This document shows, piece by piece, positions 1 through 61,792 of a stretch of 64,000 nucleotides of DNA. The notes under the pieces were generated by a model. It did not search any database. It saw only the letters and a program-made list of their open reading frames with translations, and had not been told where the DNA came from. The first letter of the stretch is position 1. The number at the start of each line of letters is the position of its first letter. Position numbers and translations under genes: made by a program. The stretch comes from Hormiphora californensis (lineage: Eukaryota; Animalia; Ctenophora), in NCBI GenBank assembly GCA_020137815.1, contig CM035354.1, forward strand, positions 248,001 to 312,000, in the 5' to 3' direction.

Positions 1-1860
1 GTGGAGTGTGGAGGGACGGGTTAGTGGGGTATTGAGGGACGGGTTAGTGGGGTATTGAGGGACGGATTAGTGGGGTATTGAGGGACGGGTTAGTCCCTGG
101 TTCAACACTACATCTGGTACCAACTGGATGTCCACTCTAAGAGACTCTACTACATCTACCTGCAACAACAAGAGATGTCAGGACGGGTTAGTGGAGTGTG
201 GAGGGACGGGTTAGTGGGGTATTGAGGGACGGGTTAGTGGGGTATTGAGGGACGGATTAGTGGGGTATTGAGGGACGGGTTAGTCCCTGGTTCAACACTA
301 CATCTGGTACCAACTGGATGTCCACTCTAAGAGACTCTACTACATCTACCTGCAACAACAGGAGATGTCAGGACGGGTTAGTGGAGTGTGGAGGGACGGG
401 TTAGTGGGGTATTGAGGGACGGGTTAGTGGGGTATTGAGGGACGGATTAGTGGGGTATTGAGGGACGGGTTAGTCCCTGGTTCAACACTACATCTGGTAC
501 CAACTGGATGTCCACTCTAAGAGACTCTACTACATCTACCTGCAACAACAGGAGATGTCAGGACGGGTTAGTGGAGTGTGGAGGGACGGGTTAGTGGGGT
601 ATTGAGGGACGGGTTAGTGGGGTATTGAGGGACGGATTAGTGGGGTATTGAGGGACGGGTTAGTCCCTGGTTCAACACTACATCTGGTACCAACTGGATG
701 TCCACTCTAAGAGACTCTACTACATCTACCTGCAACAACAGGAGATGTCAGGACGGGTTAGTGGAGTATTGGAGAAGGAAGGAAGGGAGGGAAGGACGAG
801 TTAGTGGAGTGTGGAGGGACGGGTTAGTGGGGTATAAAGGAAGGGAGGGATACCCACTCTAAGAGACTCTACTACATCTACCTGCAACAACAGGAGATGT
901 CAGGACGGGTTAGTGGAGTGTGGAGGGACGGGTTAGTGGAGTGTGTAGGGACGGGTTAGTGGGGTATTGAGGAAGGAAGGAAGGGAGGGAAGGACGAGTT
1001 AGTGGAGTGTGGAGGGACGGGTTAGTGGGGTATAAAGGAAGGGAGGGATACCCACTCTAAGAGACTCTACTACATCTACCTGCAACAACAGGAGATGTCA
1101 GGACGGGTTAGTGGAGTGTGGAGGGGCGGGTTAGTGGAGTGTGTAGGGACGGGTTAGTGGGGTATTGAGGAAGGAAGGAAGGGAGGGAAGGACGAGTTAG
1201 TGGAGTGTGGAGGGACGGGTTAGTGGGGTATAAAGGAAGGGAGGGATACCCACTCTAAGAGACTCTACTACATCTACCTGCAACAACAGGAGATGTCAGG
1301 ACGGGTTAGTGGAGTATTGAGGAAGGAAGGAAGGGAGGGAAGGACGGGTTAGTGGGGTGTGGAGGGACGGGTTAGTGGGGTATAAAGGAAGGGAGGGATA
1401 CCCACTCTAAGAGACTCTACTACATCTACCTGCAACAACAGGAGATGTCAGGACGGGTTAGTGGAGTGTGGAGGGACGGGTTAGTGGAGTGTGTAGGGAC
1501 GGGTTAGTGGGGTATTGAGGGACGGATTAGTGGGGTATTGAGGGACGGATTAGTGGGGTATTGAGGGACGGGTTAGTCCCTGGTTCAACACTACATCTGG
1601 TACCAACTGGATGTCCACTCTAAGAGACTCTACTACATCTACCTGCAACAACAGGAGATGTCAGGACGGGTTAGTGGAGTGTGGAGGGGCGGGTTAGTGG
1701 AGTGTGTAGGGACGGGTTAGTGGGGTATTGAGGAAGGAAGGAAGGGAGGGAGGAGTTAGTGGAGTGTGGAGGAAGGGAGGGACGGGTTAGTGGAGTGTGG
1801 AGGAAGGGAGGGACGGGTTAGTGGGGTGTGGAGGAAGGGAGGGACGGATTAGTGGGACGA
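1..1860 (+). repeat. Complex minisatellite: 190-bp unit containing a GSAP coding segment plus GGGACGGGTTAGTGG subrepeats
   Basis: Near-identical units with the coding block starting at 94, 284, 474, 664 and 1577; truncated copies at about 854, 1052, 1250 and 1402. Confidence 0.95.
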
Positions 1861-4800
1861 AGATAAGAGGGAATTGACATATTATCACATATTATCACTA
1901 GTTTAGCAATAGAATTGAGTGGTTAAGGGTACACCTGGCGTTTTTCATCATCGAGTGCCCAACCAAATGACTTCACCAGGGTTTAGGCCATACAAAATGG
2001 ACCTCAAATATGCAATTTTAGCCCTAAATTCGAATTCATATTTTTGCTACAGCCTATTTTCAAAGTGGCGTTTTTTCAATTTTTGTTGGAATTTTTAACC
2101 TCAGGACCACTTTTTTTGAGATAGAAACATTAAATTCTTGGAATTTGAAGAGAATATAAAGGTGAATAAGCCCAAAGAAGGATTTTTGAAATGGAGCTTA
2201 TTTCTGGCCATAAGAACGGTTTACTTTTTTGCTTCTTTGACACGCTGGCTGACAATGTTCCCATGCTTCATTAGAGATGAAAATCTGGAAATAGTTGCTC
2301 AAAACGATTATCTATGTGGCCCAAAAATTTTGGAACTTTCCCGCCAAAGATGTGGTGTACAGAGCTTGTTTTGTGAAACCCGTCTTTTTGAAAAAGAGGG
2401 AAATTCCCTGTATCTCAAAAACGGATGATCGTAGAGACCTGCGACCAAGCTTAATCGATTCAGAAGGTCCGATTTTGGGGGGGGTCTTCTGAGAGACATT
2501 TTGCTCCTACTCCAACCGTTTTTGCTGTAATTGCGAAAAAGGTATCAGCAAGTAAGGGGAAATCAGCCCGAAGCAGGCTACTGGAATAGAGTTGTTCCCC
2601 CTTTTCATAGAATTGGTTTTTTGCAATTACAGCAAAAACGGTTGGAGTAGGAGCAAAATGTCTCTCAGAAGACCCCCCCAAAATCGGACCTTCTAAATCG
2701 ATTAAGCTTGGTCGCAGGTCTCTACGATCATCCGTTTTTGAGATACAGGGAATTTCCCTCTTTTTCAAAAAGACGGGTTTCACAAAACAAGCTCTGTACA
2801 CCACATCTTTGGCGGGAAAGTTCCAAAATTTTTGGGCCTCATAGATAATCGTTTTGAGCAACTATTTCCAGATTTTCATCTCTAATGAAGCATGGGAACA
2901 TTGTCAGCCAGCGTGTCAAAGAAGCAAAAAAGTAAACCGTTCTCATGGCCAGAAATAAGCTCCATTTCAAAAATCCTTCTTTGGGCTTATTCACCTTTAT
3001 ATTCTCTTCAAATTCCAAGAATTTAATGTTTCTATCTCAAAAAAAGTGGTCCTGAGGTTAAAAATTCCAACAAAAATTGAAAAAACGCCACTTTGAAAAT
3101 AGGCTGTAGCAAAAATATGAATTCGAATTTAGGGCTAAAATTGCATATTTGAGGTCCATTTTGTATGAACTAAACCCTGGTGAAGTCATTTGGTTGGGCA
3201 CTCGATGATGAAAAACGCCAGGTGTACCCTTAATAAAACAAATTCTGCTCTCTACCAGGCGTCTGCTGGTGAAAGAAGCCAAACAGTCAGTTCCATGTTT
3301 AATGTCTTCCAGTTCTCGACAGTCAGCCACCCGCAACTGACTCTATCTGTGAAACTTCCCCTCCCCATTTTACCGGAACTTTATACCGTCAGGTAACAAG
3401 GTTTAGGTAACTGATATATTCTAACCAGGGAACAGCACTGTTTTTGTAAAGGTCCTTGATCATTGATGAACAATTAACCGTTTAGTTGCTAATTGACCTC
3501 AGAGCTATAACAACTAGTTCGATTGACCGGGGATTAAACCAGGGATCTCCAGAAAGACATGCTCTATTGGAGCTATACCAATATAAGCTACCAAACCCTT
3601 ACTAGATAAATGTGTATGGACTTCTTCTTTGACCGCTTCCCGGAGCACAAAACACTGTTTTCCTTCTTCAGACTTTTCTTATCCCTAATTGCTTCAGTAA
3701 CCGGTGTAGCCTCGGTCCCACCTCTCTCTCTTTGACTGACTGCCGAGTTACTACCTCTGTTCTGCAGACGGGGGACGCTACCGTACTTTGTATTGCTTAC
3801 AATTATAAGTATTGGGTCTATATCCTACACCTGGGTAAGAGTCGCAGCTGTATGAAAGTATGAACAATTCAAAGAGATACAGTTGTTTTATTCTTTATTT
3901 AAAAGTTAAGATCATTCACCTGATGTCTTGATTGTTTTCTAAAAGCAGCTCATCTCACGCAGGATATCTAGTAGAGTGTAGTTACTGGTCCCTGATTGGC
4001 TGATAACCAGTCACGTGACCTAAATAACGAGTTCTGATTGGTTGTTTATCCACACAGGATATCTAGTAGAGTGTAGTTACTGGTCCCTGATTGGCTGATA
4101 ACCAGTCACGTGACCTAAATAACGAGTTCTGATTGGTTGTTTATCCACACAGGATATCTAGTAGAGTGTAGTTACGGGGAGGAGGGTAAGCCACCTCCTG
4201 TGTTGACCTTCCTGGAACTGAATGGGTACACTATAGTATACAGCCCTGTCGGAACACTCCATTGTATCGATACGAGGTGAGTGTGGCTATTTTATTGTAA
4301 AATGTGTGCGAGGGCTCTGTAGATCAAGGTGAGAGGTTATAAGTGTTGTTATAAGCAGGAACCGACCGAATCAGGAAATACTGGTCCCTGATTGGCTGAT
4401 AACCAGTCACGTGACCTAAATAACGAGTTTTGATTGGCTGTTTACTTAATCCGGTCGGTTCCTGGTTATAAGATGTCAGGATGAAAGTATGCCACCGGTA
4501 AAAATACTGTTTGTTTACCTAAGGGTTACACGGTCGCTTGTAGTGGGAAAACGGTAATGGAAAACGAAGATACAGTAAGACGACGCGCAACCGTGACCAA
4601 TCAGGGCGCTAGTACGTGCTGACACATGAACTTTTTGCCGCGCGTTATGCAACGTGCGCGTCTCTTTACTGTATTTTGCGTTACCGTATTTTGACTGCAA
4701 GCAGCACTGTAAGCTAAGAAACGATTTAAATCACAACCATATATGGTTGTGATTTAAATCGTTTCTTATATACATATACATCGAATAATTCTTAGAAGAT

Positions 4801-12639: not shown

Positions 12640-23390
<10,751 letters not shown>

Positions 23391-28514: not shown

Positions 28515-28577
<63 letters not shown>

Positions 28578-36249: not shown

Positions 36250-37559
36250 ATGCGGGCACTAGTTCTGGTGTATCTCATTGTGGCTTATTGCAGTGCGTAC
36301 AGTTCCGGCCGATCAAGGGTGAGTGAAAAGTGGGACGTTATTGCGGTATTAGATCAAGTGGTAGGGTGGGACGTTATTGTGGTACTAGATCAAGTGGTAG
36401 GGTGGGACGTTATTGTGGTACTAGATCAAGTGGTAGGGTGAGTGAAGAGTGGTTTTATTGTGGTTAGAAGTGTTAGGGTTCGTGAAGAGTGGGACGGTAT
36501 TGTTCAGGGTTAGTGAAGATCGTTGTTCATGCTATACTGACTACTGTTTATCAGGGGCGGGAGGTCGTATGGGTATTCTGGAGTTATAAGTATACTGTGG
36601 TAACTAAAAAGAGTAGTGGTAGTAGTCTGTAGTGTATGGACTTTTTTGCTTTTTTTTAATAATTGTTAACCGGATACCCTCGGTTAAGATAAACTCTGAG
36701 GGGTATAACAACCTCCCACTTCTTTCGAATTTTATCAGCCGATAATGTTATAGGGCGGGCACGTGAATCTGTTATCTGATTTGACACAATAAAATGAGTT
36801 AATTATAAGTTCAATATGCCAAAGTTGGATATTTTATCAAATTTTATCATTTATTATAGGGCTAGGGGTGTCGGGCAATTTTCTAGTAACCCACCCAATT
36901 CACCTATAACTGCAGGGCCTCGAAGCCTATTGGGCATAATTTTTGGGGTACGTTATACTAGCATGGGAGGGGCAGCTAAACTGATAAGCAAATTCTCACA
37001 TATAATCACCTGCAGGTGACTGGTGGCCGAAGGAAGGGAGGTGAAGGTGGCTCGTCAGCTGGCGGGGGAGTAAAGAAGTTCCCCCACCAAGGTGACTTTA
37101 TCGAGGTAAACATGCAGTTCTTGTATCATGTTCCTTTCTGTTTTAGTGCACGTGTTTTATCCAAGCAGATAGATAAAATAATTTGAATTAATCCCATTTC
37201 TTCTATCTATGATCCTAAATGCTTTCTCTTTCTCTCTCTCTCCCATTCCGAATGCTTATATTTGGTTGAAACTCCGTGCTTGTCCCCCAAGCCCACATAG
37301 TTGATTTAAATGCAGCACAGGACCGTGGAAGAAATCTCCCACGCGCCTCCCTCCCTTCGAGCATTCTGATTGGTCCATCGTGTACCACGTGACTAGAATA
37401 CTGCACTATGATTGGTTGGTTCTCTCTGCGTTTAAATTCATGTGAATAATCACACAAGGTCAGGAAGGAGGAGAGATATGCTGTTAAAATGACATACTCA
37501 AAAATCTTCACGACTCGCATACACGTTGTTTTAAAGCACCTACTCAAATAGGTCACGTG

Positions 37560-37651
<92 letters not shown>

Positions 37652-40600
37652 CATGCATCATGGTCATATTGGTCTATAGGAATAGTCTAAGGGGGAAGAG
37701 AGATAGAAGGAGAGAATGAGCGGTAAGCAAACAGTCGGAGCTATTCGAGGTGAAAGATCAAAATTAAAATTCAGAGCTCTGACCATGTATCAATTCTCTC
37801 ACCATGTAGCAATTTTCTGACCTCTATATAACGAATGTGCGGTTGGACCCTTTTCTTTCAATATGCGACTAATAATCACATGCAGTAGTATAGTCTCTGT
37901 GTGTACTAAAATATGAAATTATCATACGATGTAGGAGATATATTCAGATTGGAACTTTCTCTATCCTACACGTCCTTGACCTTCTCAAGGATTCTCTGAA
38001 GGTTCAATTCCCAGTGAAACCCAGTATTTTCCCTCTCAATTTCTTCCCTATCTAATTCTTACTCGGAGCACCATCAGCAACAAGAATATTATAACGGTGT
38101 TACTATGTGATATATTGTGATGTGAATGTGAAAGAGGCACTATAATGGGTCCAGAGAGTTGAATATCACGTATTAGGTTCAATTCTTGTTCCTGACATCT
38201 TCATTCTTCACCACCCCCATCAGAAATTCGCCAGGCGAAACCTCCACTCCTCGCGAATTTCTGATGGTGGCATGTTTTGTGTGGGAATTCTAAGATAGTA
38301 CCCTCTGATCTGATTTGAGCATGACTTACCACTATAATATTGTACCCGATATATACCTATTATACTCACAATATTGTACTCACAAGTACAACTCAATTCT
38401 ATTTAGAGAGACCGCGGGAGACTCTTTTGGGACTGCAAAGTCAAACGACACATCGTCGACTTTGATTGCAAGTTTTATAGTGCTGAGGTCAGTGACTTAA
38501 AAATGTAAAATTGTAACCATCCCCCCGCTGTTTTTTATACGTCCGCTTTACGTGCCAATAAGTGAGAGCTGGTGAGAGTGAGAGATAAAAAAACTTGAAA
38601 TATATAGCGACCATGAATTATTTGGGGCTATAATGCGACTTGCGAGTGAAAACATTAAAAAAACCATCATGAAATATACTGCTGAAACTTGGAAACTGTA
38701 CTTTACAACTGTACTAAGTACAGTTTCCGAGTACTGTACTTTTCCTCACTGACCTCCAGCTTCATTTTCATATAGAAATACATCATGGACCGACCGAATC
38801 AGGAAATACTGGTCCCTGATTGGCTGATAACCAGTCACGTGACCTAAATAACGAGTTCTGATTGGTTGTTTACTTGTTTCGGTCGGTTCCTGAAATACAC
38901 ATGCAGTGCTGCAATCCTCTCTCTTTCTGTGTGTGAGTGTGTGTCTCTCAATGTGTGCACCCGATATATAAATCATTTTCATGTTGCATGAACTAATCAC
39001 AGCTATGTGTGTGTTAATTTCTTATTCTAAAACATTCCTATAATTACCTGTTTGGTACTGGAGCCGTCCCGATCTGAAAGAATCAACTCGGGGACGGCCA
39101 CCCCAGGCAGCTTTCAAAGTGATATATAACACAGTCGGACCCCAACTAACCGGGATGCCCCGGAAAATCGGGGTCTGCAGACTGTAATATATCATCTTGA
39201 TATAATGTGTTTGCTCACTAGTAGAGGGGTTGTAGCACCGGGAGGTAATGAGTAAACACACACACACGCATTGAGCAAGCTCAATGTTTAGCTATTCTCC
39301 GGCTGGGTATTATAGGGCTGAGGTACTGGCAAGATATAGTAGGATCGCTACTGCCCACATGTCAAGTCTATTCGGATATACAAGTTTAAAAGGTTGGGGG
39401 GTCACAGGGACCGTCTTAGCTTCGCTCCCCGTTAACATCGCCTGTAACCGGGGGTCCACTAAGCTCTCATATATACTCGGCCATTACTCCCAACCACTAG
39501 TAGTGGTTTTCAGTACCTCTTATACTGGTAAATCCGTATAGAAACAATCCTTGTGTTTTAATAGCGATCACTCCGTATATCTTGCACTGACCCAGTATTA
39601 CCACACATTATTAATGTGTGGTAATACTGGGTCAGTGCAAGATATACGGAGTGATCGCTATTAAAACACAAGGATTGTTTCTATACGGATTTACCAGTAT
39701 AAGAGGTACTGAAAACCACTACTAGTGGTTGGGAGTAATGGCCGAGTATATATGAGAGCTTAGTGGACCCCCGGTTACAGGCGATGTTAACGGGGAGCGA
39801 AGCTAAGACGGTCCCTGTGACCCCCCAACCTTTTAAACTTGTATATCCGAATAGACTTGACATGTGGGCAGTAGCGATCCTACTATATCTTGCCAGTACC
39901 TCAGCCCTATAATACCCAGCCGGAGAATAGCTAAACATTGAGCTTGCTCAATGCGTGTGTGTGTGTTTACTCGTGTTTGCTCACCACCCCTCTCTGATAT
40001 CAGGTGGGAGATGACCAGGAGGACGGTTTGGAGGGGAGCGAGTCAGACCTGCCCATCAATCCCAGCAGGAGTTGGGAGCAGTTCATGGAAAAGAACAATA
40101 AGGATGAGCTGGAGGAGGCGCAACCTGAAATTGAGAAGGATTACAACCATGCGACTAAGAGCACTGGCAGTGATCCATGGGTAAATAGGGGGTAACTAGG
40201 GAGTAACTAGGAAGAGGGGTAACTAGGGAAAGGGGTAACTAGGGGGTAACTATACTTGGGAGTTGTGGGTAACAAGGCAGTGATCCATGGGTAACTAGGG
40301 GGTAACTAGGGGGTAACTAGGAAGAGGGGTAACTAGAGGGTAACTAGGGGGTAACTAGGAAGAGGGGTAACTAGGGATAAATAGGGGTGACTAGAGGGTA
40401 ACTAGGGATAACTATACTTGGGAGTTGTGGGTAACAAGGCAGTGATCCATGGGTAACTAGGGGATAACTAGGGAGTAACTAGGAAGAGGGGTAACTAGGG
40501 AAAGGGGTAACTAGGGGATAACTATACTTGGGAGTTGTGGGTACCAAGGCAGTGATCCATGGGTAACTAGGGGGTAACTAGGAAGAGGGGTAACTAGGGA

Positions 40601-43600
40601 TAAATAGGGGTGACTAGAGGGTAACTAGGGATAACTATACTTGGGAGTTGTGGGTAACAAGGCAGTGATCCATGGGTAACTAGGGGGTAACTAGGGATAA
40701 ATAGGGGTGACTAGAGGGTAACTAGGGATATGTAGGGGTTACTAGGGTCTAGGGACAACAAGGGTGTTACTAGAGGGAGGGGGTAACTAGGAGAAAACTA
40801 AGGGTGGCTAGGCATCTTGAATTATTTAAGTTATTGGTAACCGAGGGTAACTTATGGGGCATGGGGCATGGGTATGGGCCTTGGGTAACAGTCAGGAACC
40901 GACCGAAATAAGTAAACAACCAATCAGAACTCGATATTTAGGTCACGTGACTGGTTATCAGCCAATCAGGGACCAGTATTTCCTGATTCGGTCGGTTCCT
41001 GGCAACCGTATGACTATAAGCTAACCGTTACCCCCTCCATCAGACAGGATGGACGTCCATTCCCGGACCCCAAGGACCACCTGGACCACCGGGACTTCTT
41101 GTTCTTGAGGAATTCTCTGAAGCACTCCGTCTTATTCAGGGTAACTATAGGGCTGAGTTATAATAGGGCTGAGTTATAATGGGGTTGTTATTCAGGGTAA
41201 CTATATAATAGGGCTGAGTTATAATGGGGTTGTTATTCAGGGTAACTATATAATGGGGATGAGTTATAATGGGGTTGTTATTCAGGGTAACTATATAATG
41301 GGGATGAGTTATAATGGGGTTGTTATGGAGTATGGGGTTGTTAATGTTATGGGGTTATGGAATAGGGTTACTATGGGATTGGGAAGTAACTTTATATATG
41401 ATTGATCAACATTCTAAACAATATTCTAAAGCTAAGATTCAGAGGGTGGCCGTGTTAATGTTAACATTTCTTCAGAATCCGAGGGTGGCCGTGTTAATGT
41501 TAACATTTCTTCAGAATCCGAGGGTGGCCGTGTTAATGTTAACATTTTTTCAGAATCCGAGGGTGGCCGTGTTAATGTTAACATTTCTTCAGAATCCGAG
41601 GGTGGCCGTGTTAATGTTAACATTTCTTCAGAATCAGAGGGTGGCCGTGTTAATGTTAACATTTCTTCAGAATCAGAGGGTGGCCGTGTTAATGTTAACA
41701 TTTCTTCAGAATCAGAGGGTGGCCGTGTTAATGTTAACATTTCTTCAGAATCAGAGGGTGGCCGTGTTAATGTTAACATTTCTTCAGAATCAGAGGGTGG
41801 CCGTGTTAATGTTAACATTTCTTCAGAATCAGAGGGTGGCCGTGTTAATGTTAACATTTCTTCAGAATCAGAGGGTGGCCGTGTTAATGTTAACATTTCT
41901 TCAGAATCAGAGGGTGGCCGTGTTAATGTTAACATTTCTTCAGAATCAGAGGGTGGCCGTGTTAATGTTAACATTTCTTCAGAATCAGAGGGTGGCCGTG
42001 TTAATGTTAACATTTCTTCAGAATCAGAGGGTGGCCGTGTTAATGTTAACATTTCTTCAGAATCAGAGGGTGGCCGTGTTAATGTTAACATTTCTTCAGA
42101 ATCAGAGGGTGGCCGTGTTAATGTTAACATTTCTTCAGAATCCGAGGGTGGCCGTGTTAATGTTAACATTTCTTCAGAATCCGAGGGTGGCCGTGTTAAT
42201 GTTAACATTTCTTCAGAATCCGAGGGTGGCCGTGTTAATGTTAACATGTTTAAGGGGTGGCCGTGTTAATGTTAACATTTCTTCAGAATCAGAGGGTGGC
42301 CGTGTTAATGTTAACATTTCTTCAGAATCCGAGGGTGGCCGTGTTAATGTTAACATTTCTTCAGAATCCGAGGGTGGCCGTGTTAATGTTAACATTTCTT
42401 CAGAATCCGAGGGTGGCCGTGTTAATGTTAACATTTCTTCAGAATCCGGGGGTGGCCGTGTTAATGTTAACATTTCTTCAGAATCCGAGGGTGGCCGTGT
42501 TAATGTTAACATTTCTTCAGAATCCGAGGGTGGCCGTGTTAATGTTAACATTTCTTCAGAATCCGAGGGTGGCCGTGTTAATGTTAACATTTCTTCAGAA
42601 TCCGGGGGTGGCCGTGTTAATGTTAACATTTCTTCAGAATCCGAGGGTGGCCGTGTTAATGTTAACATTTCTTCAGAATCCGAGGGTGGCCGTGTTAATG
42701 TTAACATTTCTTCAGAATCCGAGGGTGGCCGTGTTAATGTTAACATTTCTTCAGAATCCGAGGGTGGCCGTGTTAATGTTAACATTTCTTCAGAATCCGG
42801 GGGTGGCCGTGTTAATGTTAACATTTCTTCAGAATCCGAGGGTGGCCGTGTTAATGTTAACATTTCTTCAGAATCCGAGGGTGGCCGTGTTAATGTTAAC
42901 ATTTCTTCAGAATCCGAGGGTGGCCGTGTTAATGTTAACATTTCTTCAGAATCCGGGGGTGGCCGTGTTAATGTTAACATTTCTTCAGAATCCGAGGGTG
43001 GCCGTGTTAATGTTAACATTTCTTCAGAATCCGAGGGTGGCCGTGTTAATGTTAACATTTCTTCAGAATCAGAGGGTGGCCGTGTTAATGTTAACATTTC
43101 TTCAGAATCCGAGGGTGGCCGTGTTAATGTTAACATTTCTTCAGAATCCGAGGGTGGCCGTGTTACTGTTAACATTTCTTCAGAATCCGAGGGTGGCCGT
43201 GTTAATGTTAACATTTCTTCAGAATCCGAGGGTGGCCGTGTCAAGATGACTAGGAAGAACAGGAAGATTCTAAAGAATGGACCAATACTGAACATTGTAT
43301 TTGCCAATGTCGGCTCAGAGGGATCACTAGACGAGTCGATTAACTACGTAAGTTATCACTTGTAGTTTTTTAACAAAGAGTTAACATTAACAATGGTAAC
43401 CATGGTAACACATGATATGGTAACCATGGTAACACATGTGTGTTTTATTCATTTTGATTGATACATGCAGTGTGAGAGACACTTCTAAACCATCCTGCTA
43501 GCAGTCTGATGGAGATGGCCAGGGAGGTTTCTACGGTTCCCCAAAGTCTGATATATTCCTCCAGAGGCTCACCCGACTTCGCATCAACAACTTCTCCAAG

Positions 43601-46600
43601 CCCAAGGTAATATTACCCAAACCCAAGGTAACCAGCTGCCCCAAACCAAAGGTAACCAGGGTAACCCAAGGTAACCAGCTGCCCCAAACCAAAGGTAACC
43701 AGGGTAACCCAAGGTAACCAGCTGCCCCAAACCAAAGGTAACCAGGGTAACCAGGGTAACCCAAGGTAACCAGCTGCCCTAAACCAAAGGTAACCAGGGT
43801 AACCCAAGGTAACCAGCTGCCCTAAACCAAAGGTAACCAGGGTAACCCAAGGTAACCAGCTGCCCCAAACCAAAGGTAACCAGGGTAACCCAAGGTAACC
43901 AGCTGCCCTAAAGCAAAGGTTACCAGGGTAACCCAAGGTAACCAGGGTAACCCAAGGTAACCAGGGTAACCCAAGATAACCAGCTGCCCCAAACCAAAGG
44001 TAACCAGGGTAACCCAAGGTAACCAGCTGCCCTAAACCAAAGGTAACCAGGGTAACCAGCTGCCCCAAACCAAAGGTAACCAGGGTAACCCAAGGTAACC
44101 AGCTGCCCTAAAGCAAAGGTAACCAGGGTAACCCAAGGTAACCAGCTGCCCTAAAACAGTCCTTATCATCCCCTGTCAGTATTATCTTCCTAGTAGATTA
44201 TTGTTACTTGTTGAGTACAAATTATTACAGGTAAGGTTCACTTCTTTTCCCCTTAATTCCTAATTTCTCGCTATTTTTAACCCCTCCCTCCATCTCCCAC
44301 CAGGCCTCACCAGGATCATTCACCTTCAACAGTGGCATTGAGTTCAACCACCGCAGTGGGGCCATCACAGCGGTCCAGACGGGTGCCTACCTTGTCAGTG
44401 CCACCATCAACCTCCAGAGAATACCTGGTACCGAGGACGAGGTGCCAACATTTGAGGACAACATTACAGGCCGACTGTGTACTGATGATGATTGTATCTT
44501 GTGGTAAGTGGGAATTCCTAAATACAGGGTGTCAGCCCAGTCATGACCCCAAAATCACAAAGACAGTGGGACACCCTGTACAATAGGGGTTGCTAAGTCG
44601 GAATGAATCGCTATGAATCATATTTCCTGTTATTCATTGGGGAATTATCTACTGATATCCGGAGTTTCAGCCCAAACGGTTGAGCCACTAAGGATCGCAA
44701 GCCACTTTTGTGACCCTTGTTTTTGCTGTTTATTGCAGTGTGCATGGGTTGTATTCGTGCACATACGGTTGTATAGTATAAAATTGGGTCTTTATAGTCA
44801 AATATCGATATGAATCATATTTCCTGTTATTTATTGGGTAATTATCTACAGATATCCGGAGTTTCAGCCCAAACGGTTGAGCCACTAAGGATCGCAAGCC
44901 ACTTTTGTGACCCTTGTTTTTGGTGAAAAATCGGGAAAAAATCGAAAAAAAATTTTAAAATTTCAAAATTTCAAAACACGGAAATTAGTTCATAGAACAT
45001 CCCAATACATGTGCAAGACTTTAAAATTGAGTATTCAAAAATTTCAACTTAGCAACAGTACAGTACAGTACAGTACAGTACAGTACAGTACAGTACAGTA
45101 CAGTGTACAACTCAAACTAAAAAGGCCCTTACTTGGCCTTGGGTTTTATGAAACTTCCAACGGTTAGAATTCTATTATCTGATTACATAATAAAATTCTA
45201 AAAAATCCTGTCCCTAAATCGGGGTGCCACTAAATCGGGGGCCACTAAATCGGGGTCCGACTGTATCTGATTATATAGACTTCAAATTTGAAGAACACTC
45301 CCTATCATGGGAAAGTGACTTTGAATGTTTTTAAGTTAGGGTTACTTTAGAACCTGGTTTATATCGGTACATGTCTAATACCGACATAACACACTGCACC
45401 CATGATTTGTTGAGTAACCCCAGGAACCGACCGAAACAAGTAAACAACCAATCAGAACGCGTTATTTAGGTCATGTGACTTGTTATCAGCCAATCAGGGA
45501 CCAGTATCTCCTGATTCGGTCGGTTCCTGCTCAACAACACCTGTACCGTGTGTGTCATTGTGTGATATATTGTGAAGCATGCAGTGTCATCTCTATCAAG
45601 CAGTCGACTGTCTCACAGCAGCTGTGGAATTCGGAGAACTACATTATATCTGTGCAGTTGATCCGAATGCCACCTACTATAATAATCGGCAAATGCAATT
45701 CTATCTTCTCCCCATGGGAGGGAGGGAGGGGTGGGAGTAAACAACCAATCAGAACGCGTTATTTAGGTCACGTGACTTGTTATCAGCCAATCAGGGACCA
45801 GGGAGGGAGGGGTGGGAGTATCGGGTAGCAACAGGATGTCTACATATGATGTCTACTGCCCACCACCCCCCCTCCAGTAGCGGGGTGCCGCTGCTAGTTG
45901 TGTCGGGTCCCATACAGTGTATGGCATACACACGGTGTCCCTTAAGGAGGTGAAACCTCGACTAGATAAAGTTTTTTGGAGACCGGACCTAGGTTACGTA
46001 TTTTTGACCGAGGAATCCGAAAAACATAAAATTAAAATCGAAAACGTAGCGGTTTTTGCGTAAAACGGCAAAAACTGTCATTTTTCAGCGATTTTCGACT
46101 TTTTACGCTTTCTAGAGATTTAAAAAATATTTCCTTACAAGATATGATCTTGTGCTTCTAGACTAATAAAATACAATCGATTTGCTACAAATTGGTCCCG
46201 GGTTTGTGTGATTTGGTCAAAAGCTCTCTTTACTGTGGCCCATCAAAGATGGCCACTCTGCAAATACGTTTTTGGCTCCTGTGGCCGCAGATGTAAACCA
46301 AAAGAAGATTTATTATACACCAAAATTTGCGTCTTCTGAAGGCGAACAACCTGGTTTTTACGAAATTTGATTTCATGCAGGCGTTCAAAAATTACAGCCG
46401 AAAAACTGGTACAGTGGATTTCGGAAATACCCCTACTTCAACAAACCCTAATCCAGATGAGATTTCGAAAAATATACATCTTTATACATGAAAATGAAGC
46501 TCAGACAAATGCCAACGTGATGCAAAAAACGGGAAGTGTGTAACTTATTTCGTTTAGAAGCTATAGCGAAAATAAAAGTGCTTGTATTTGCCTTGAAAAC

Positions 46601-51610: not shown

Positions 51611-51908
51611 TGTGTGCTAAATTGTAGAAGGGGGGGGGGGGTGAGATATACCAAATTATTGGAGGCGGGGGGGGGGGGGGTGAGATATACTAAATTATTG
51701 AAGGGGGGGGGGGTGAGATACACTAAACTATTGAAGCCTGAAGGGGGTCAGATATACTAAAAAGAGGGGGGGGGGGGGTGAGGTAAATTATTGGAGGGAG
51801 GAGATGTACTAAAGAGGGTAGGTTTGTGTGAGAGATATTGTTTAGAGTCATGCTAAGAAGAGGGGGCTGCGAGAGTCCTGCCTGTTGATGGAGGGACTGG
51901 GATAGATA

Positions 51909-52519: not shown

Positions 52520-52602
<83 letters not shown>

Positions 52603-53216: not shown

Positions 53217-53512
53217 TATATATTGAGTCGATTGATTTATCTAGAAAGAGTAGGGCCCGCGACATTATTTCTTGGACAGCCTAATATTTATGATCTAGGA
53301 TATTGGTAATCAGGTTATTATACGTGGGATATAACAAAGTAAACACGCTATATATTACGCTGGTTAGCAGAAGAATATAATACAGAAAAAGTTTAGAAAC
53401 TTAAAAACAAAATTCCCAAAAAGAATCAAGCTACAAATATGACCGGTCGGACAGACAACCGATTTTATCTCTAACACTCTCAAACAGTGAAAGCAACCTC
53501 TATTTCCAATAA

Positions 53513-56500
53513 CTAAACATGGGGAGATAGAATCTCAGTTCCATCTCGGGTGATTAAGATCGTATGCTCGAATTGTGCTGAGCGTTTGCAGTCAGCAGAG
53601 ACAGCTGTCCACCCGTCGGAGAGAATTACCATAGCGTCACTACCCTCCATCAATATGGGCTCTGTTGGGTGAGAAAGGGAGATACAGTGGGCTCTGTGGG
53701 TGAGAAAGGGAGATACCTTACTCTCGTTTTTTAAGAAACGCTTTAGTAAGAAACTTTTTTATAAGAAACTTTTCAAATGTAAATCACACAATTCAGAGAC
53801 ACCACAACAAAATAGAACACCCCTAACTTGTTTAGTTTCTTGATAAAGGAGAAGTTCTTTTTGTTTTTGGATTGCTTACACCTGTAGTTTCCTAGAAAAA
53901 AAGTTTCTTATTTAAAAGTTTCTTGAAATATGCGAGCTTAATTAACGAGAGTAAGGTATTATCATAATGGGCTCTGTGGGTGAGAAAGGGAGATAAAGTG
54001 GGCTCTGTTGGGTGAGAATGGGAGGTATTATCAATATGGGCTCTGTGGGTGACAAAGGGAGATACAGTGGGCTCTGTTGGGTGAGAAAGGGAGATACAGT
54101 GGGCTCTGTTGGGTGAGAAAGGGAGATACAGTGGGCTCTGTTGGGTGAGAATGGGAGATACAGTGGGCTCTGTTGGGTGAGAAAGGGAGATACAGTGGGC
54201 TCTGTTGGGTGAGAAAGGGAGATACAGTGGGCTCTGTTGGGTGAGAAAGGGAGATACAGTGGGCTCTGTTGGGTGACAAAGGGAGATACAGTGGGCTCTG
54301 TTGGGTGAGAAAGGGAGATACAGTGGGCTCTGTTGAATGGGAGGTATCATAATGGGCAGTGGGCTCTGTTGGGTGAGAATGGGAGGTATCATAATGGGCT
54401 CTGTAATAGAGATGAATTGTGCAAAGGGTAGATCGGGGCAATTTTATAAGCTGGCAAACTAAAACCCTGTGAAAAAGCCTTCCTGAGCCTGAAGCAGCTG
54501 AAGACTCCCCCTTCTTACCTATAGTGAACACCATACCCGGCCTCATAACGTGGCGATTAGCAGAGTTAGGGTAGTGATAAACATCCGGCAAGCCGTGAAA
54601 ATAACTCCCAATACCGTGGCCAATGAACTCCTTTGAGATACTGAACTTTTCCTCCGTAGCTATCTTTCTGAAGGAGAAATATGGGAAATAGACATACGGA
54701 TACATAATATGTAGTATGAACAAAAACAAACACGAGTGTTTGTACAGTAGGGTAGCGACTGGCTATTTGAAACAGTTTTTCACTTTTTTCCCTTGCCTGC
54801 CCACAAATCAAGTCGAACCCAAATTTTTTTGACCTTGTGTTACCGAGACAGTCCCTGGGTAGTTTTTTGGGTGGTTGGAGATGTCTCATTTTGTCTTCCG
54901 GGGTCAGGGTCACGTGATATCTATCCAAATTTGGTGTTTCAATTTACCCGCCTCGGTCTGCTAATTTGAAACACCCGTATCTCCCTCAATTTCTGCACGA
55001 AACCAAAATTTTTGACATTGAATAGTTAGAAAAGGGTTGTGCAGAGCCATTCCATGTCTGAAATCTGAATTTTGTTGAACGTGCTTGGTGCAATGACCTT
55101 TTCCAAAAACTGTTTCAAATTAGCAGGAAAACAGTTTTTGCCTCATATTCGGCCAACTTTTGGCGGAAATGACTCAAATCATAGTTTATATCCTGCCTCA
55201 TGCTAATATTGAACAACAAAAATTTCGACAATCCAATCGGAGAAAATTGTTTCAAATAGCCCTCCTCAGTGTTTCAAGTTACCCGACTCTCTTCACTGTG
55301 CTACAGCACACACACGACACCAATCAGAGAGCAAATAACGCGCATTTGTTTCAAATAACCAGAGCACGTGTTTCAAGTTATCAGACACTGTTTCAAGTTA
55401 GCAGGCGTTTCAAATTGCCAGTCGCTACCCTACTCCAGGGAAATTTCATTGCCCTGTCGAGTTCTCCTGAGGACACAATCCCCACAAATCACAGTAATAT
55501 GTAGTATGTATTTCTCTCTCAATCTCAAATGGCGACATAAAGATTAGAAGTACAGCTAACAACCACGTACCCGATAATGTTGCCAATAGAGTTGAATCGT
55601 TCACCTGGCCCACACACCCCTATTGCAGCCAGTGTAGCCCGTTTTGAGGCAGCTATGAGACGGTGACCCGGAATATCAACCTCCCCTATGGAGGTACTGG
55701 AACAACAATCTCCAAATACACCTTTATAATATATCTGAACGGATAATCAATTGGGATATTATCAATAATAATAACGGGACCCGATATACCGGGCAAAAAC
55801 CTTCCCTCGAGCATCCCGGTAAATCAGGATCCGACTTTAATTGCATATCATCTTATTCAAAATATCCACACATCTTGCTATGAAACATACCGATACATCG
55901 ATGCTGATGATATCTCCACTCCGTAGTTTCCTAGTGTTTGGTATACCGTGACACAGCACATTATTCACAGAGGTACAGATGGATTTGGGGAATGCTCGGT
56001 AGTTGAGAGGCGCTGGGTACGCTCCTGCTGCCACAATTTCAGAATGTGCAAATTTATCCAGCTCGTCTGTAGATATACCCTCCTGGGAATGAGGTGTCCC
56101 TTAAGGAGGTGAAACCTCGACTAGCTATACAGTTTTTCGGAGACCGGACCTAGGTTACGTATTTTTGACCGAGGAATCCGACAAACATAAAATTAAAATC
56201 GGTAACGTAGCCGTTTTTGCGTAAAACGGCAAAAACTGTCATTTTTCAGCGATTTTCGACTTTTTACGCTTTATCTCCTATCTAACTTTATCTTGCCCAT
56301 AACTTTCACTTTTGTTCAAACCCGGGGCACGGAGAGAGAGTATCGAGGTTTTATCAATGATCATTCTTCCAACAACTTACCCCAGCCGCATCCAGTACTT
56401 TGTTCAGTATCCCCCCTGTTATGTGACCCGCTTCTCTCATTTTACCTATCTCATCCGCACATTTGATATCTGAAACAATTACTGGACATTAATAATGTAA

Positions 56501-56795
56501 TCACTGGGCATTAAGACATCATTTCAATTTTGTAGAATTAATCGTAATTGTAATTGTGTACTTGTTGTAACAAATTACAAAATTTCTAGTAAAAACTGTA
56601 CTTTTTCGCACTCTCTCGTGAAAGCTCTCAGTTCTCACCTATGGATGAGGGTCGAGCAGGTGGAATTCCGTTCCTGTGGTAGGAAGGTAGAATGATATGT
56701 CCTGGTACAGTCAGTGTCTCTGTTACAGGTTCAATTCCAACTACACTGTACCACCTTGAACAACACCTGACCCTTCCAGCTAACCTACCTAACAT
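53513..56795 (-). CDS. METAP1D: Methionine aminopeptidase 1D (mitochondrial type). Exons: 56795-56639, 56469-56381, 56082-55891, 55734-55571, 54667-54519, 53661-53513
   Basis: Arg-rich presequence MLGRLAGRVRCCSRW; GAYPAPLNYRAFPKSICTSVNNVLCHGIP, GDIISIDVS, GHGIGSYFH, GMVFTIEP, DGWTAV, SAQFEHTILIT. Confidence 0.92.
53657..54403 (-). repeat. 32-bp acceptor-site minisatellite in the last METAP1D intron
   Basis: Minus-strand unit ACTGTATCTCCCTTTCTCACCCAACAG|AGCCC at 53657-53716 and 53968-54403. Confidence 0.9.
54745..55435. mobile_element. pogo-like MITE in a METAP1D intron
   Basis: AGTAGGGTAGCGACTGGC.ATTTGAAAC...GTTTCAAAT.GCCAGTCGCTACCCTACT; TTTGAAAC subrepeats. Confidence 0.7.
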
Positions 56796-56959: not shown

Positions 56960-57890
56960 CTTCCTGTCAGAGACTGATTTTTTGAAGAAATTTAATATTA
57001 AGAACAAGATATAGAAAACAAACACACTAAAAAGTAAAATCAGTAAAATCACAAATCACATAAAAACATAAACACACAAAACAGTTTCTCGAAAATCCAC
57101 AAACTTGTAGGAAAGTAACAGATTAGAAAACAACTCTTCACTCCTCATCACTTTCTTTTTCACTATCAGTAAGGGGGAACTGAGCAGGAACCCGAAACAA
57201 GTAAACAACCAATCAGAACTCGTTATTTAGGTCACGTGACTGGTTATCAGCCAATCAGGGACCAGCATTTCCTGATTCGGTCGGTTCCTGGAACTGAGCT
57301 AACACAAACACCACACACCACACCATAAACACACTATGAACAAACACCATCACCAACAGACAGAACATACAACCATACCCTATAATTTTGCCGATAGTGT
57401 TAACAGATTTACAAATTACATTGCTGACAGAGGTACAGATGGATTTGGGGAATACTCGGTAGTTGAGAGGTGCTCGGTACGCTCTTTTACTCTCATCCGC
57501 ACATTTGATATCTGAAACGTGGCAGTGTAATCACAGGTAAAATTACTTATGCTCCACACCACACCATATCACTTTTGTGGAAGTATCCGTTATTACGAAA
57601 TCACTTTAGTAAAAACTAGCTTTTCACCAATCTCACCGCTCACCTATGGAGGAGGGTCGAGCAGGTGGGATTCCATTCCTGTGATAGGACCACCTTGAAC
57701 AACACCTGACCCTTCCAGCTAACCTACCTAACATGCTACAATATAATGTGAGGGTGTTAGTGGGAGAGGAGTGTTAGAAGATGTTAGTGGTGAAAATAGA
57801 TCCAAATTCCAAGTGAGGGAGGGGAGTTGGCAATAAGAAAGTGTCTTCCTGCAACTACTCTGCCAAACTAAGGAATAGGTAGCTATATCA
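56960..57890 (-). pseudogene. Decayed partial duplicate of METAP1D 5' exons and the NAA20 3' end
   Basis: 57640-57890 copies 56635-56950 with deletions; 57427-57517 copies pieces of exons 2 and 3; 56961-56975 and 57124-57170 resemble the NAA20 C-terminal coding sequence. Confidence 0.75.
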
Positions 57891-58300: not shown

Positions 58301-58849
58301 TCAGAGACTAGAAAACAACTCCTCAGTCCTTATAACCTTCTTCTTCGCAATCAACGTCTTCCCCTCCGGGTCCCTTGACAGCGCTTTCCGCATATCAAAT
58401 GCGTCCTCGTCTGGAGGTGAGTGAGGTGCCGAACCACCCGCATAGTACTCAACAATCTGCCGGTATACTGAGTACCCAAAGTTTTTGTACATCCCGATGG
58501 CTACATTGTTGCTGATCCGAACAAACAAATCTACAAAATAACACTTTTGGTTGTCACTGATTTGTTCCAGTTGTCTCATTAGGGTACGAGCGAGGCCTAC
58601 CCGTCTAAACTGGGATGACACGGTCAGTGTGGTCACATGACCATGCCAGTTCTCGCCCTGACCCTCGCTCTTCCCAAGGATGTAGCCCATCATCTGGCCT
58701 GACGGGGACTCAGCGACGGTACAGTATTCGGGCCAGTTCACTAGGTATTGGAGGTAGAAGGAGATCCCGTAGTTCTCCGTGAGGGGGTCAAAGTTGACCC
58801 GATTGAAGCGGAATATGTCCTTACAGGTAAATGGTCGGAGTGTACACAT
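58301..58849 (-). CDS. NAA20: N-alpha-acetyltransferase 20 (NatB catalytic subunit), intronless CDS
   Basis: TLRPFTCKDIFRFNRVNFDPLTENY; MGYILGKSEGQGENWHGHVT; FVDLFVR.SN.VAI.MY; EDAFDMRKALSRD. Confidence 0.97.
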   Translation of the reverse strand: MCTLRPFTCKDIFRFNRVNFDPLTENYGISFYLQYLVNWPEYCTVAESPSGQMMGYILGKSEGQGENWHGHVTTLTVSSQFRRVGLARTLMRQLEQISDNQKCYFVDLFVRISNNVAIGMYKNFGYSVYRQIVEYYAGGSAPHSPPDEDAFDMRKALSRDPEGKTLIAKKKVIRTEELFSSL

Positions 58850-59333
58850 TCTAGAGAAAATGTAGGTGTGAGAAAAATGTTGATAAGAACATAAATGGGG
58901 CTGAGGTATTTTAGGGGGGGGGGGTAGAAGGAAGAAGTGTACACATTCTACATAGACAAATAAATAAAATGGGTAGGTTTTTGTGTTAGAAAAGCTGCCC
59001 GGATGGCTATATATGTTGGGGAGAACACTTCTTGGGTGGTGGGTCGGGGAAATAGCTGGTGTTAGTAAAACAGTTGGTTACGAAGTCACCCCTGTTATTA
59101 TATGGTTTGCGGATGGGGTAATTCATTACCAAGTAAAACAGTACATCTAACGTTTCAAACTAGGTAAAATGAACTGGTACTCATCACAAAAATATAACAA
59201 TTATTACACACACTTCAGTAGTGTCTCTGTTGCCTTGAGTTCTGTATGGAACATCTTGCCTTGCTAGACCCTGTTTCACATGTTACAAAATATGTAAAGG
59301 AGGGTTAGAACATCAGTAGGAGAAGCAACACCA

Positions 59334-61792
59334 TCATATGTATACCTGCCCGATTGCCAGCCTGTCACAGAACGGCTTGATGCAGAACCTGGTACCCACA
59401 AAGAATAATATCCCAACAAAGATGGAGATGGGAAGGGCTGGTAGGGCACGTTTTACCACCGCTAGGATGAGGAGAGTCAGACACATTCCAATAAGGATGG
59501 CAAAGAAACATGCCATGACGGTGTTCCAGTCGTCAGCAGTAGCTGCTTTACCAACCAGCACACTGTAGAATATGAAATCACCCAGACCGAGTTTTACACC
59601 CTGCTCTGCTGGCTCCTGAAATACAGATCTTGTGAAATCTGAAATACAGATAGTTTGATAAGCAAGAACCGACCGAAACAAGTAAACAACCAATCAGAAC
59701 TCGTTATTTAGATCACGTGATTGGTTATCAGCCAATCAGGGACCAGTATTTCCTGATTCGGTCGGTTCCTGGTGATAAGGGATAAAACGTAGATTCTTAG
59801 TGTGATATAAGGCGTGAGAAAGATTGGAGTGGCCAAAGTTTATGAGATAATCGATGTCGCCGGTTCATCACATAACTTCTCCTGATTTAAAGGTGTGTAT
59901 AAGAGACTATATACCCTGCTAACTTTAATAATGCGCCAGTCCCACTAGCGCGCTCTCAGTAAACAGCCAGTCCAGCGGCAGATTATTTCCCACTGGCAGG
60001 TTATTTATTTTTAACTCCTACGTAACATTCAAAGTGTGTGTAAATGATCAGTTCTTACTAAAATACAGAGGGAACACTATGTGCAACACTTACACACTAC
60101 ATTGGAGAGAAAGAAAGGACACATTCCGTCAATTACTCTCTCTTTATCTCCCCTTTTGTCTCACTATCTCTTTCTCTGTGTTATTTGTGACATGCCCCTT
60201 ATCAGGCTATTTCTTTCACTCTCTTTCCTTAGCAACTGCTTAGTAACTGTTACCAAACAGTGTACACTCAATTGTGACAAGTTTTTAACTATTTCTCAGT
60301 TCTCTTTGTGTGTTTTGATTAGTGTTCTCTCTCTTGTTGGTGTGTAATACTTGAAATAAACAACTAAAGCAGGGTATATAACCCATAAACTCTGACCACT
60401 GGCACGTTATAGGTTTAAACCCCTCCGCCTCTCCCTCGGCTCCGCCTCGGGATCGTCGTCGTGATTTAAACCAGTTTATCCGCCAGCGGCGGATAAACTC
60501 CAGCTAACTTCTCCCAGCGGCGCGCTGGGAGAAAGTTATCTGAAATAACGCGCCAGTGGCCAGAGTTTATGCCTCATATAGACCCCGCTCGCTCAAATAG
60601 ACGCCCGCCCCGCGCGAACAATTTGCACTGGTCTATTGCGCCGTGCACTGCCGTGAGTTTGTGTCTCGATAGACGCACGCCCTCTGACAGATTTGTGTAA
60701 AGATCACAAAGAATCACTGGAAACACGATAAAATGACATGACAACACAAGAGGGAGTGTGTGTACAACCAACTAAGCTCTCTGTCTAGATTTGGCGCCCG
60801 CCAGTCTGTTGGCAACTGTTCCTCTTGACCCACAATTAACTGTTATCTCTCTCTGCATTCCACCCTTTTGATTTGTTAAAACGATTGGTACGAGTGTGTA
60901 GGAATGTAGAGAGGCACTTTGTAGCTTCATTTCCAACTATTTGACCCGTTTTGTGTGAGCTCTCTGTTTGAGAACCACGTAAATTGTGCTTGTTTTGCTT
61001 CTAGGTGCCCGCCAGCGGGGTCTATAGAACACAACTCCCTCCCTTGCGTGCAGATATACCTGTAAACCCCTCGCTGACGCTCGGGATTTACAGGGCTGTA
61101 ACGCACGGTCCCTTCGGGACCCGTGCATTACAGCTCAATAGACGCACTGCTCTGCAGTGCGTCTATTGATTATCTGCCCGCGCGGGAGGGAGTTATGTAC
61201 TATATAATCTATAGACAGTAAATACGGGATATAAATTATAAGAATAATGCTCTTTTCTAAGGATATACCAGTAGGAGACTAGAAATTCAAACAACAAAGG
61301 GTAGTTACCATTTCAGGATCATGTTCCTGTGTTCCTGTGTTGTTTGGTGCGGTGTTATTAGGTGCGCGATTAGGAGGAGGAGCTGTATTCCCAGGTGGGG
61401 AAGAAAATGAGTTACTCTCGTTCAGCTGATTGTAGTTCGGATCAGAGGGCTCAGTCATACCTGAGGAAGGGGTGAACTTGATATATTGGATGAATGAGGT
61501 GCAGGATACTACTTTAATTGATATATAGGGACCCGGCCCAGGAGGGGGGGGGGGGTATTTTAAAAATATCGTTTACTACGGAACGGATTTAATGACTTGA
61601 ACGAAGTCCCGCTTAGGTAAAACAGCAGTGACACCTACCAGCAGCACCTACCGGTTATGGTCCACATAACAGTGCTGGAGTAGATAAGAGCAGGGAATAT
61701 TGGCTCGTTCCTGCTCTCTGCAAGTTCAACTAAGATCCGCAGGGGTCCCTTGGGGCACAACACAGCGAACAAGTCATAGATTGCAATACCAC
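59334..61792 (-). CDS. PSEN: Presenilin, 3' part. Exons: 61792-61652, 61460-61309, 59615-59334
   Basis: Catalytic YD ([16 protein letters not shown]), [27 protein letters not shown] and the PALP motif; exon phases are consistent. Confidence 0.95.

What the first reader, a model, noticed from the sequence alone, without database searches (positions are those of the whole stretch)
1..61660. Exon-intron junctions act as systematic seeds of local tandem repeats across seven genes
Seen in sequence: repeats whose unit spans a real splice junction occur at GSAP (whole coding segment plus donor, 1-1670; acceptor, 3961-4175), ETS (acceptors ~18787/18827 and ~19185-19340), the adipolin-like gene (donors 36318, 40180, 41140, 43606; acceptor 43222), POLR2D (51617-51800), METAP1D (53657-54403), NAA20 (AG+ATG recopied at ~58938-58952) and presenilin (acceptor recopied ~59640; donor ~61638). 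The units are unrelated to each other, so they are not one transposon family. Inference: a locus-independent mechanism duplicates DNA preferentially at splice junctions, for example splicing-coupled R-loop or repair slippage. The spliceosome must then choose among many decoy sites. This could be a route to intron growth, intron sliding or isoform diversification.
Basis: partly seen in the sequence, partly recalled or inferred. Interest (0 to 1): 0.82.

Follow-up and report, generated by a model that had tools for sequence, protein, structure and literature searches.

The report
Comb-jelly splice-junction mirage repeats
In five of seven genes in this stretch of comb-jelly DNA, about one exon border in eight has been copied into the neighbouring non-coding DNA, a repeat type already known from lancelets and humans, and the copies likely arise when DNA repair switches between very different versions of the same gene rather than through splicing itself.

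Summary
Real, but a known kind. The window is ctenophore DNA. I annotated 76 canonical junctions. Nine carry a junction-spanning copy within 400 nt, all on the intron side. Short-read contigs of two samples hold the four small cases tested. RNA uses the exon-adjacent site in 2 of 2 cases, one shown and one inferred. Per base there is no enrichment. Per event there are 9 against 2.8 expected (P 0.0009), but none beyond a general excess within 80 nt of exons (9 vs 7.2). These are 'mirage' minisatellites (amphioxus, PMC3087553; human F7, PMC1557585). In 5 of 5 acceptor cases the outer copy keeps the exon head behind a different intron end. That argues against one-step slippage and fits template switching between diverged alleles. 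Nothing here requires splicing-coupled R-loops. The scan noted this pattern before, in this genome and others.

The parts
1..1856 (+). GSAP-like donor array: five 93-nt and four shorter copies of a coding segment, each followed by a donor and a G-rich 23-mer; working exon not identifiable (window starts inside the array)
3956..4175 (+). GSAP-like acceptor array, 95-nt unit = 23 nt exon head + 64-nt inner piece of the ~109-nt MITE + acceptor; acceptors at 3963, 4058 and 4153 (frame-correct)
18786..18846 (-). ETS acceptor copy 40 nt upstream of the frame-correct site (18803); 18-nt exon head with one silent change
19196..19339 (-). ETS intronic 30-nt pair ending 10 nt before the acceptor 19185; does not span the junction
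36316..36460 (+). C1q/TNF-like donor region: 36-nt unit x3 and a second full-strength donor at 36437; RNA uses 36318
40166..40800 (+). C1q/TNF-like donor array: four copies of a 15-nt exon tail plus donor in a G-rich 11-mer field; frame-correct donor 40180
41132..41326 (+). C1q/TNF-like donor array, 45-nt unit, three copies of a 9-nt exon tail; frame-correct donor 41140
41435..43241 (+). C1q/TNF-like acceptor array, 47 units (45 spacings of 39 nt, one of 31 nt); the unit is 13 stop-free codons; frame-correct acceptor taken as 43223
43601..44155 (+). C1q/TNF-like donor array, 43-nt unit; intron head of the units differs from that of the frame-correct donor 43606
51617..51797 (-). POLR2D 33-nt poly-C unit ending at the AG just before the start codon; no exon bases
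53649..54400 (-). METAP1D acceptor array, 32-nt unit, interrupted by a palindromic element at 53713-53959; frame-correct acceptor 53661, outermost copy 54400
57418..57886 (-).
58839..58950 (-). NAA20 acceptor + ATG, 15 nt copied 97 nt upstream; possibly a trans-splice acceptor (inferred)
59616..59651 (-). Presenilin 13-nt intron end repeated 23 nt upstream; ends at the AG
61632..61652 (-). Presenilin donor with an 8-nt echo 13 nt downstream; chance-sized

Best explanation
These are mirage-type repeats, copies of exon borders lying in the neighbouring intron, that likely start when DNA repair or recombination switches template between strongly diverged alleles at an exon edge, likely persist because splicing would keep using the exon-adjacent site, and likely grow afterwards as ordinary minisatellites.

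Steps:
1. Shown: alleles differ at many silent exon sites and by block replacements in introns, so exons are islands of homology.
2. Inferred: a strand copying allele A runs through A's acceptor and 7-23 nt into the exon, then re-anneals by a few shared bases in the intron tail of allele B. The result is A-acceptor + exon head, then B-tail + B-acceptor + whole exon.
3. Shown for position, inferred for cause: only products whose extra copy lies on the intron side are seen, as purifying selection would give.
4. Shown once and inferred once: RNA uses the exon-adjacent site.
5. Inferred: the two copies seed unequal exchange or slippage, up to 47 units.

Splicing is a filter on survival, not the mutagen.
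For: - In 5 of 5 acceptor cases with an exon part, the outer copy shares only 2-4 nt upstream of the exon with the working site (6-17 of 32 matches), while its exon head is 7-23 nt and nearly identical.
- Four of those 5 outer acceptors score at or above the 95th percentile of 1,864 random intronic AGs; the C1q-like one does not (70th).
- The GSAP unit holds a MITE piece joined through 3 shared bases, with no such piece upstream of the array in this intron. Three of 10 full MITE copies lie 39-48 nt from acceptors, so an allele with one there is plausible.
- Allelic divergence: 72 nt replaced by 74 other nt in METAP1D intron 1 in both DNA runs; 17 of 21 exon differences are silent, 7 of them within 76 nt (21 coding rows taken from the 40 rows shown, 115 rows not shown).
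- Copy-versus-exon differences: 10 of 16 silent against 23% expected (P 0.0009).
- The outer C1q-like copy encodes the D found in the relative P0003, where the working exon has E.
- 9 of 9 copies lie on the intron side. RNA joint 36318-37016.
- High heterozygosity is reported for a related ctenophore (3.2%, PMC8527503) and for amphioxus (2.73%, PMC13577491 abstract), where mirages were named.
Against: - No allele carrying only the A or only the B intron end was seen in the two samples laid; both share the NAA20 and presenilin copies where covered.
- The silent excess comes mostly from the METAP1D upstream copy (7 of 10). The junction copies alone give 3 of 6 (P 0.14), one of which is probably a chance match, and transition bias was not corrected. 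Later crossing-over could also give silent differences.
- The donor arrays at 40180 and 1-1856 fit simple tandem duplication (up to 30-31 of 32 intron-head matches).
- Enrichment leans on one gene (4 vs 1.8 without it, P 0.095) and on a hand-made mobile-DNA mask.
- Human mirages exist despite low heterozygosity (PMC1557585; human heterozygosity recalled).
Confidence: 0.5

Rival explanations
1. Ordinary microhomology-mediated tandem duplication or slippage on one chromatid happens everywhere. It looks junction-linked because exon-flanking DNA is the old, non-mobile part of the introns and because selection spares intron-side copies. Outer copies later lose their intron tail by deletion.
For: No per-base enrichment: 7 of 76 junctions at 12 nt or more against 11-20% of intron bases. 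The masked mobile share rises from 7% within 40 nt of junctions to 76% beyond 300 nt. There is no excess within 80 nt. Such duplications are described as mostly neutral and depleted from coding DNA (PMC13167724 passages; it does not mention introns). It fits the donor arrays at 40180 and 1-1856.
Against: The excess remains in non-mobile DNA: 9 vs 2.83 (P 0.0009), 8 vs 2.83 if the hand-added event counts as a miss (P 0.004), and 8 vs 3.57 in introns only (P 0.015). It needs a second event ending within 2-4 nt of the AG in 5 of 5 acceptor cases.
Confidence: 0.27
2. One reading: splicing-coupled R-loops or spliceosome-linked breaks make junctions mutational seeds in the germ line.
For: Event-level excess at junctions. 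Several donor arrays are G-rich on the sense strand (mean G4Hunter 0.7-1.0 at 1-1856, 36316, 40166 and 41132).
Against: The excess is for the exon-edge zone, not the signal. Acceptors (5) and donors (4) are equally hit, and several arrays are not G-rich (43601, 41435, 3956). It does not explain foreign but acceptor-like intron ends in outer copies. One literature search for this combination listed no paper on it among 15 shown of 67.
Confidence: 0.12
3. Staggered breaks at exon edges are repaired with filler DNA, so that AG + exon head is a target-site-like duplication around an insert that happens to work as an acceptor.
For: The geometry is the same as the outer-copy pattern. The GSAP filler is a MITE piece, and the working GSAP acceptor scores poorly (0.4) against the outer one (6.8).
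Against: Fillers are unrelated to each other and mostly look like native intron ends (working sites score at the 97th-100th percentile in 4 of 5). The ETS filler shares short blocks with the outer intron end (17 of 32 matches).
Confidence: 0.08
4. The arrays are assembly or long-read artefacts.
For: The window has unpolished stretches (24575-28515 and 30660-33420, 23 and 35 homopolymer runs per kb against 3.5-13 elsewhere) and a gap-rich 70% copy of a neighbouring stretch.
Against: Short-read contigs bridge the NAA20 copy (X5) and both presenilin copies (X1, X5). At 36375-36440, X1 contigs have 5.2-6.2 times single-copy depth where the window has 1-2 copies of those words, so the window has fewer copies, not more. 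The 39-mer units carry variants in blocks and in a 4-5-unit rhythm.
Confidence: 0.03

Closest known systems
Amphioxus 'mirages' (Adh3, globins BflGb6/BflGb9, troponin C, PGBD5). Seen: passages of PMC3087553 and one passage of PMC3902484; supplements not read; the Adh3 paper PMC117041 is not held and is known only through these citations
   Same: Tandem copies of exon-intron borders at both donors and acceptors, units of tens to about 160 nt, normal splicing kept, border units differing from inner units, proposed role in intron gain, mechanism stated as unclear.
   Different: Another phylum. Density is counted here (9 of 76 junctions, about 15% of intron DNA). Outer acceptor copies sit behind a different, acceptor-like intron end. 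One unit captures a MITE piece. Some sites may be trans-splice acceptors.
Human junction minisatellites: F7 IVS7 (37 nt), CBS IVS13, interferon-inducible 6-16, lamin B2, PDGF. Seen: passages of PMC1557585
   Same: The first unit spans a donor, so the donor is reiterated in the intron; the most upstream donor is used, as at 36318 here.
   Different: Isolated loci, and all donor-side in the passages seen. Here acceptors are as common, with up to 47 near-identical acceptors in one intron.
Microhomology-mediated tandem duplications (PMC13167724, passages)
   Same: Short local duplications with a few shared bases at the joint, removed from coding DNA by selection.
   Different: They copy a contiguous stretch of one template; in 5 of 5 acceptor cases here the unit is not contiguous with the outer copy's upstream sequence.
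Intron gain by duplication of a proto-splice site (Rogers model; PMC3265369 and PMC4974935, search listing only)
   Same: Duplication involving splice signals inside a gene.
   Different: No new intron was found here; the copies lie in existing introns.

Membership tests
Mirage minisatellites | Repeat unit spans an exon-intron border | tested here: met
   9 of 76 junctions with exact spanning copies of 9 nt or more, plus the array at the window start
Mirage minisatellites | Both donors and acceptors affected | tested here: met
   4 donors and 5 acceptors
Mirage minisatellites | Unit length in the minisatellite range (10-160 nt in PMC3087553) | tested here: met
   Periods 32-113 nt for the arrays; 152-198 nt at the window start, slightly longer
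Mirage minisatellites | Reiterated splice signals do not disturb normal splicing | tested here: inconclusive
   Direct RNA joint at 1 site (one contig, depth 6) and inferred at 1 (two contigs). The other 12 of the 14 sites had no RNA evidence.
Mirage minisatellites | Copy number varies between haplotypes | tested here: inconclusive
   X1 depth is 5.2-6.2 times single copy against 1-2 copies in the window: polymorphism or assembly collapse
Mirage minisatellites | Border units differ from homogenised inner units | tested here: met
   The first 39-mer unit has 2 differences in 19 exon nt and another upstream sequence
Mirage minisatellites | Somatic length instability (reported for Adh3) | not testable with these tools
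   needs single-molecule reads from tissues of one animal
Microhomology-mediated tandem duplication | Unit is a contiguous stretch of the same template | tested here: not met
   Not met for 5 of 5 acceptor cases; compatible for the donor arrays at 40180 and 1-1856
One transposon or introner family | Units share sequence or terminal repeats across loci | tested here: not met
   Consensus units differ; the self-comparison lists no match of 150 nt or more between different arrays; only the GSAP unit holds a MITE piece

The most novel reading that the evidence does not exclude
Exon edges are duplication hot spots because they are the borders of homology between hyper-diverged alleles. Each mirage then begins as a graft of a second allele's splice site, so highly polymorphic animals swap splice sites between alleles, archive the losers in their introns and build about a seventh of their intron DNA this way. 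This would give the mechanism that the amphioxus papers left open and predict mirage density from heterozygosity.
Probability: 0.35. Interest if true: 0.7.

Novelty: new member of a known kind. Interest (0 to 1): 0.38.

Why it matters
The repeat type is known, but its origin is called unclear in the paper that describes it (PMC3087553). This window gives a count, a modest event-level excess at exon edges and a structural clue (foreign acceptor-like ends on outer copies) that make an inter-allelic origin directly testable with haplotype data. It also offers natural tests of splice-site choice: 47 near-identical acceptors with an in-frame, stop-free unit, and a GSAP intron whose frame-correct acceptor is the weaker one. 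For annotation, these copies can mislead gene prediction and read mapping. I found no ctenophore report in the library searches made; most subscription papers are not covered.

Tried and rejected
- A whole-genome test was impossible: no genome is held.
- The per-base test showed no enrichment at thresholds of 9, 10, 12 and 15 nt.
- The first event test left amplified copies in the null and overstated significance (2.30 expected); one search corrects this. With unit lengths doubled or tripled, P rose to 0.016 and 0.096.
- Rows changed before the count: the window-start array was dropped (junction outside); two clusters made of MITE pieces (45439, 49922) were dropped; one merged cluster was split by hand and its 43606 part counted as spanning (10 nt exact, under the automatic score cut-off). 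The mobile-DNA mask (28,900 bases) was drawn by hand.
- Non-touching events within 80 nt are not in significant excess (7 vs 11 beyond; P 0.18).
- G-quadruplex potential as the seed: no significant difference between flanks with and without copies.
- RNA cover was thin: X7 and X8 hold 0.35 and 0.21 of the words; X13 gave nothing useful. Runs with shares of 0.07 or less were not used as evidence.
- A spliced leader at METAP1D is only hinted at: an X8 contig has 14 unaligned letters before 56798.
- PMC117041 is not held. PMC5783719 was seen as abstract and outline only and concerns large rearrangements, so it was not used.
- Searches listed no genome-wide test of junction enrichment among the papers shown.
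Full report
Identity and annotation. No genome is held for the window. The last GSAP-like exon finds one longer homologue, from Mnemiopsis leidyi (44%). Two other exons find EukProt proteins at 100% and 96% and a Logan protein at 91%. The 'sb' identifiers are, from recall, the Pleurobrachia gene set, so the window is a Pleurobrachia-like ctenophore. Using these proteins and METAP homologues I set exons for seven genes. All 76 junctions are GT/AG and the frames are open; the C1q/TNF-like protein aligns with P0003 at 348 of 374 columns. POLR2D, NAA20 and presenilin frames rest on translation and Pfam hits. First acceptors just before a start codon (ETS, POLR2D, METAP1D, NAA20) may be trans-splice sites: leaders are common in a related ctenophore (PMC8527503 passages), and one RNA contig has 14 extra letters at 56798.

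The observation. Nine of 76 junctions have an exact, non-simple copy of 9 nt or more that spans them within 400 nt: five acceptors (4153, 18803, 43223, 53661, 58850) and four donors (36318, 40180, 41140, 43606). All nine copies lie on the intron side. The array at 1-1856 is a tenth case by homology. Local duplicates are far above chance (784 pairs against 0-1 in five shuffles). The junction arrays cover 5,979 bases against 38,715 intronic bases.

Are they real? Contigs of two DNA samples bridge the presenilin copies, and X5 bridges the NAA20 copy. Both samples hold the 36-mer array; X1 shows 5.2-6.2 times single-copy depth for words present once or twice in the window. X1 may be the sample behind the assembly, so X5 is the independent one. 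Their variant patterns look biological, but the window has unpolished stretches, so their copy numbers are unverified.

Which site is used? One RNA contig joins 36318 to 37016, the first donor. Two RNA contigs end at 59614 with 47 and 45 further letters. Those lengths reproduce the depths of the bin holding the previous presenilin exon (1.15 and 0.57), so the exon-adjacent acceptor is inferred. The joint row itself was not shown. No other site was covered. Most decoys would shift the frame; the 39-nt units and the first 43606 copy would not.

Enrichment. Per base there is none: 7 of 76 junctions at 12 nt against 11-20% of intron bases. Per event, with arrays collapsed to one unit and microsatellites removed: 9 of 45 events span a junction against 2.41 expected; in non-mobile DNA 9 of 29 against 2.83 (P 0.0009); within 300, 150 and 80 nt, 9 against 3.74, 4.89 and 7.23 (P 0.004, 0.023, 0.24); without the C1q-like gene, 4 of 19 against 1.80 (P 0.095). 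Counting the hand-added event as a miss gives P 0.004, and introns alone give 8 of 24 against 3.57 (P 0.015). Mobile DNA rises from 7% next to junctions to 76% beyond 300 nt. So there is a roughly threefold excess, which cannot be separated from a general excess at exon edges. The mask is hand-made, and the window was chosen by a reader who saw the pattern.

Anatomy. One-step slippage over an acceptor copies intron tail plus exon head, so every copy should carry the same tail. Instead, the outermost copy at GSAP (3963), ETS (18843), the C1q-like gene (41437), METAP1D (54400) and NAA20 (58947) shares only 2-4 nt upstream of the exon with the working site, while its exon head is 7-23 nt with 0-2 differences. 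Age alone would erode both parts alike. Four of these five foreign ends score like true acceptors against 1,864 intronic AGs; the C1q-like one does not (the score includes the shared AG and two exon bases). At GSAP the filler is a 64-nt inner piece of the common MITE, entered through three shared bases. On the donor side the picture is mixed: 43606 has a different intron head from its units (6-8 of 32), while 40180 and the window-start array fit plain duplication.

Alleles. Other haplotypes differ strongly: 17 of 21 listed exon differences are silent, seven of them in 76 nt, and 72 nt of METAP1D intron 1 are replaced by 74 others in both DNA runs. Copies differ from working exons at 10 silent of 16 sites (P 0.0009), but only 3 of 6 for the junction copies alone (P 0.14).

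Mechanism. Best reading (0.5): template switching between diverged alleles at exon edges, a filter by selection, then minisatellite growth. The allelic origin of the fillers is inferred, not seen. Rivals are plain local duplication plus dilution by mobile DNA (0.27), splicing-coupled seeding (0.12), staggered-break fill-in (0.08) and artefact (0.03).

Comparison. PMC3087553 (passages) describes such repeats in amphioxus as mirages, with normal splicing, haplotype length differences and an unclear mechanism; PMC3902484 (passage) adds PGBD5. PMC1557585 (passages) lists five human genes and shows that the most upstream donor wins. This window works like, and by the features testable here belongs to, that kind. 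Searches for ctenophore cases or other uses of the term found none in the held library. Earlier scan notes report the same pattern in other windows of this genome and in mussel, Kipferlia and other genomes; these are unchecked leads.

Verdict. Real, partly overstated, a new member of a known kind; interest 0.38.

Noticed in passing
window:24575-28515 and 30660-33420: Homopolymer-rich, unpolished-looking stretches (22.6 and 35.1 runs per kb against 3.5-13); 24617-25044 is a gap-rich 70% copy of 28552-29004. Probably read-like assembly segments.
   Followed up: partly
window:61881-64000: An 866-nt stretch repeated at 99.7% identity 1,254 nt away, with inner 99- and 151-nt tandem units, inside a presenilin intron: recent duplication or uncollapsed haplotype.
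   Followed up: no
window:57418-57886: Upstream partial copy of METAP1D made of exon 1 head and tail, exon 2 head and an exon 3 piece, with internal deletions; present in X1 and X5 contigs.
   Followed up: partly
window:3963 vs 4153: The outer GSAP acceptor scores 6.8 and the frame-correct one 0.4 on the window's own matrix; use of the outer one would shift the frame. Unexplained.
   Followed up: partly
window:4358-4465, 8505-8612, 20083-20189, 20484-20590, 38786-38893, 40893-40999, 45421-45527, 49892-49998, 57185-57288, 59663-59769: Ten full copies of a ~109-nt MITE, very high copy in DNA runs; three lie 39-48 nt from an acceptor and one 82 nt from a donor.
   Followed up: partly
   Followed up: partly
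window:15931-16160 (+): A C/T-rich repeated tract ending in an acceptor-like AG on the strand opposite the ETS gene, inside an ETS intron; a nested exon is possible.
   Followed up: no
window:13658-13818 (-), 8849-8875 (+), 20300-20312 (-): (GA)n or (GT)n runs begin at or just after donors of the GTGAG or GTGTG type, as if the donor seeds the microsatellite; excluded from my tests.
   Followed up: no
window:1923-3233, 7206-8493, 39250-39972, 51902-53223, 45930-49162: Large near-perfect palindromic elements with arms of 330-630 nt, one nested and holding a 334-codon ORF without a Pfam hit.
   Followed up: no
window:55987-56062, 56706-56718: Very high silent divergence between haplotypes in METAP1D exons (7 changes in 76 nt; 5 changes at 3-nt spacing).
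   Followed up: partly
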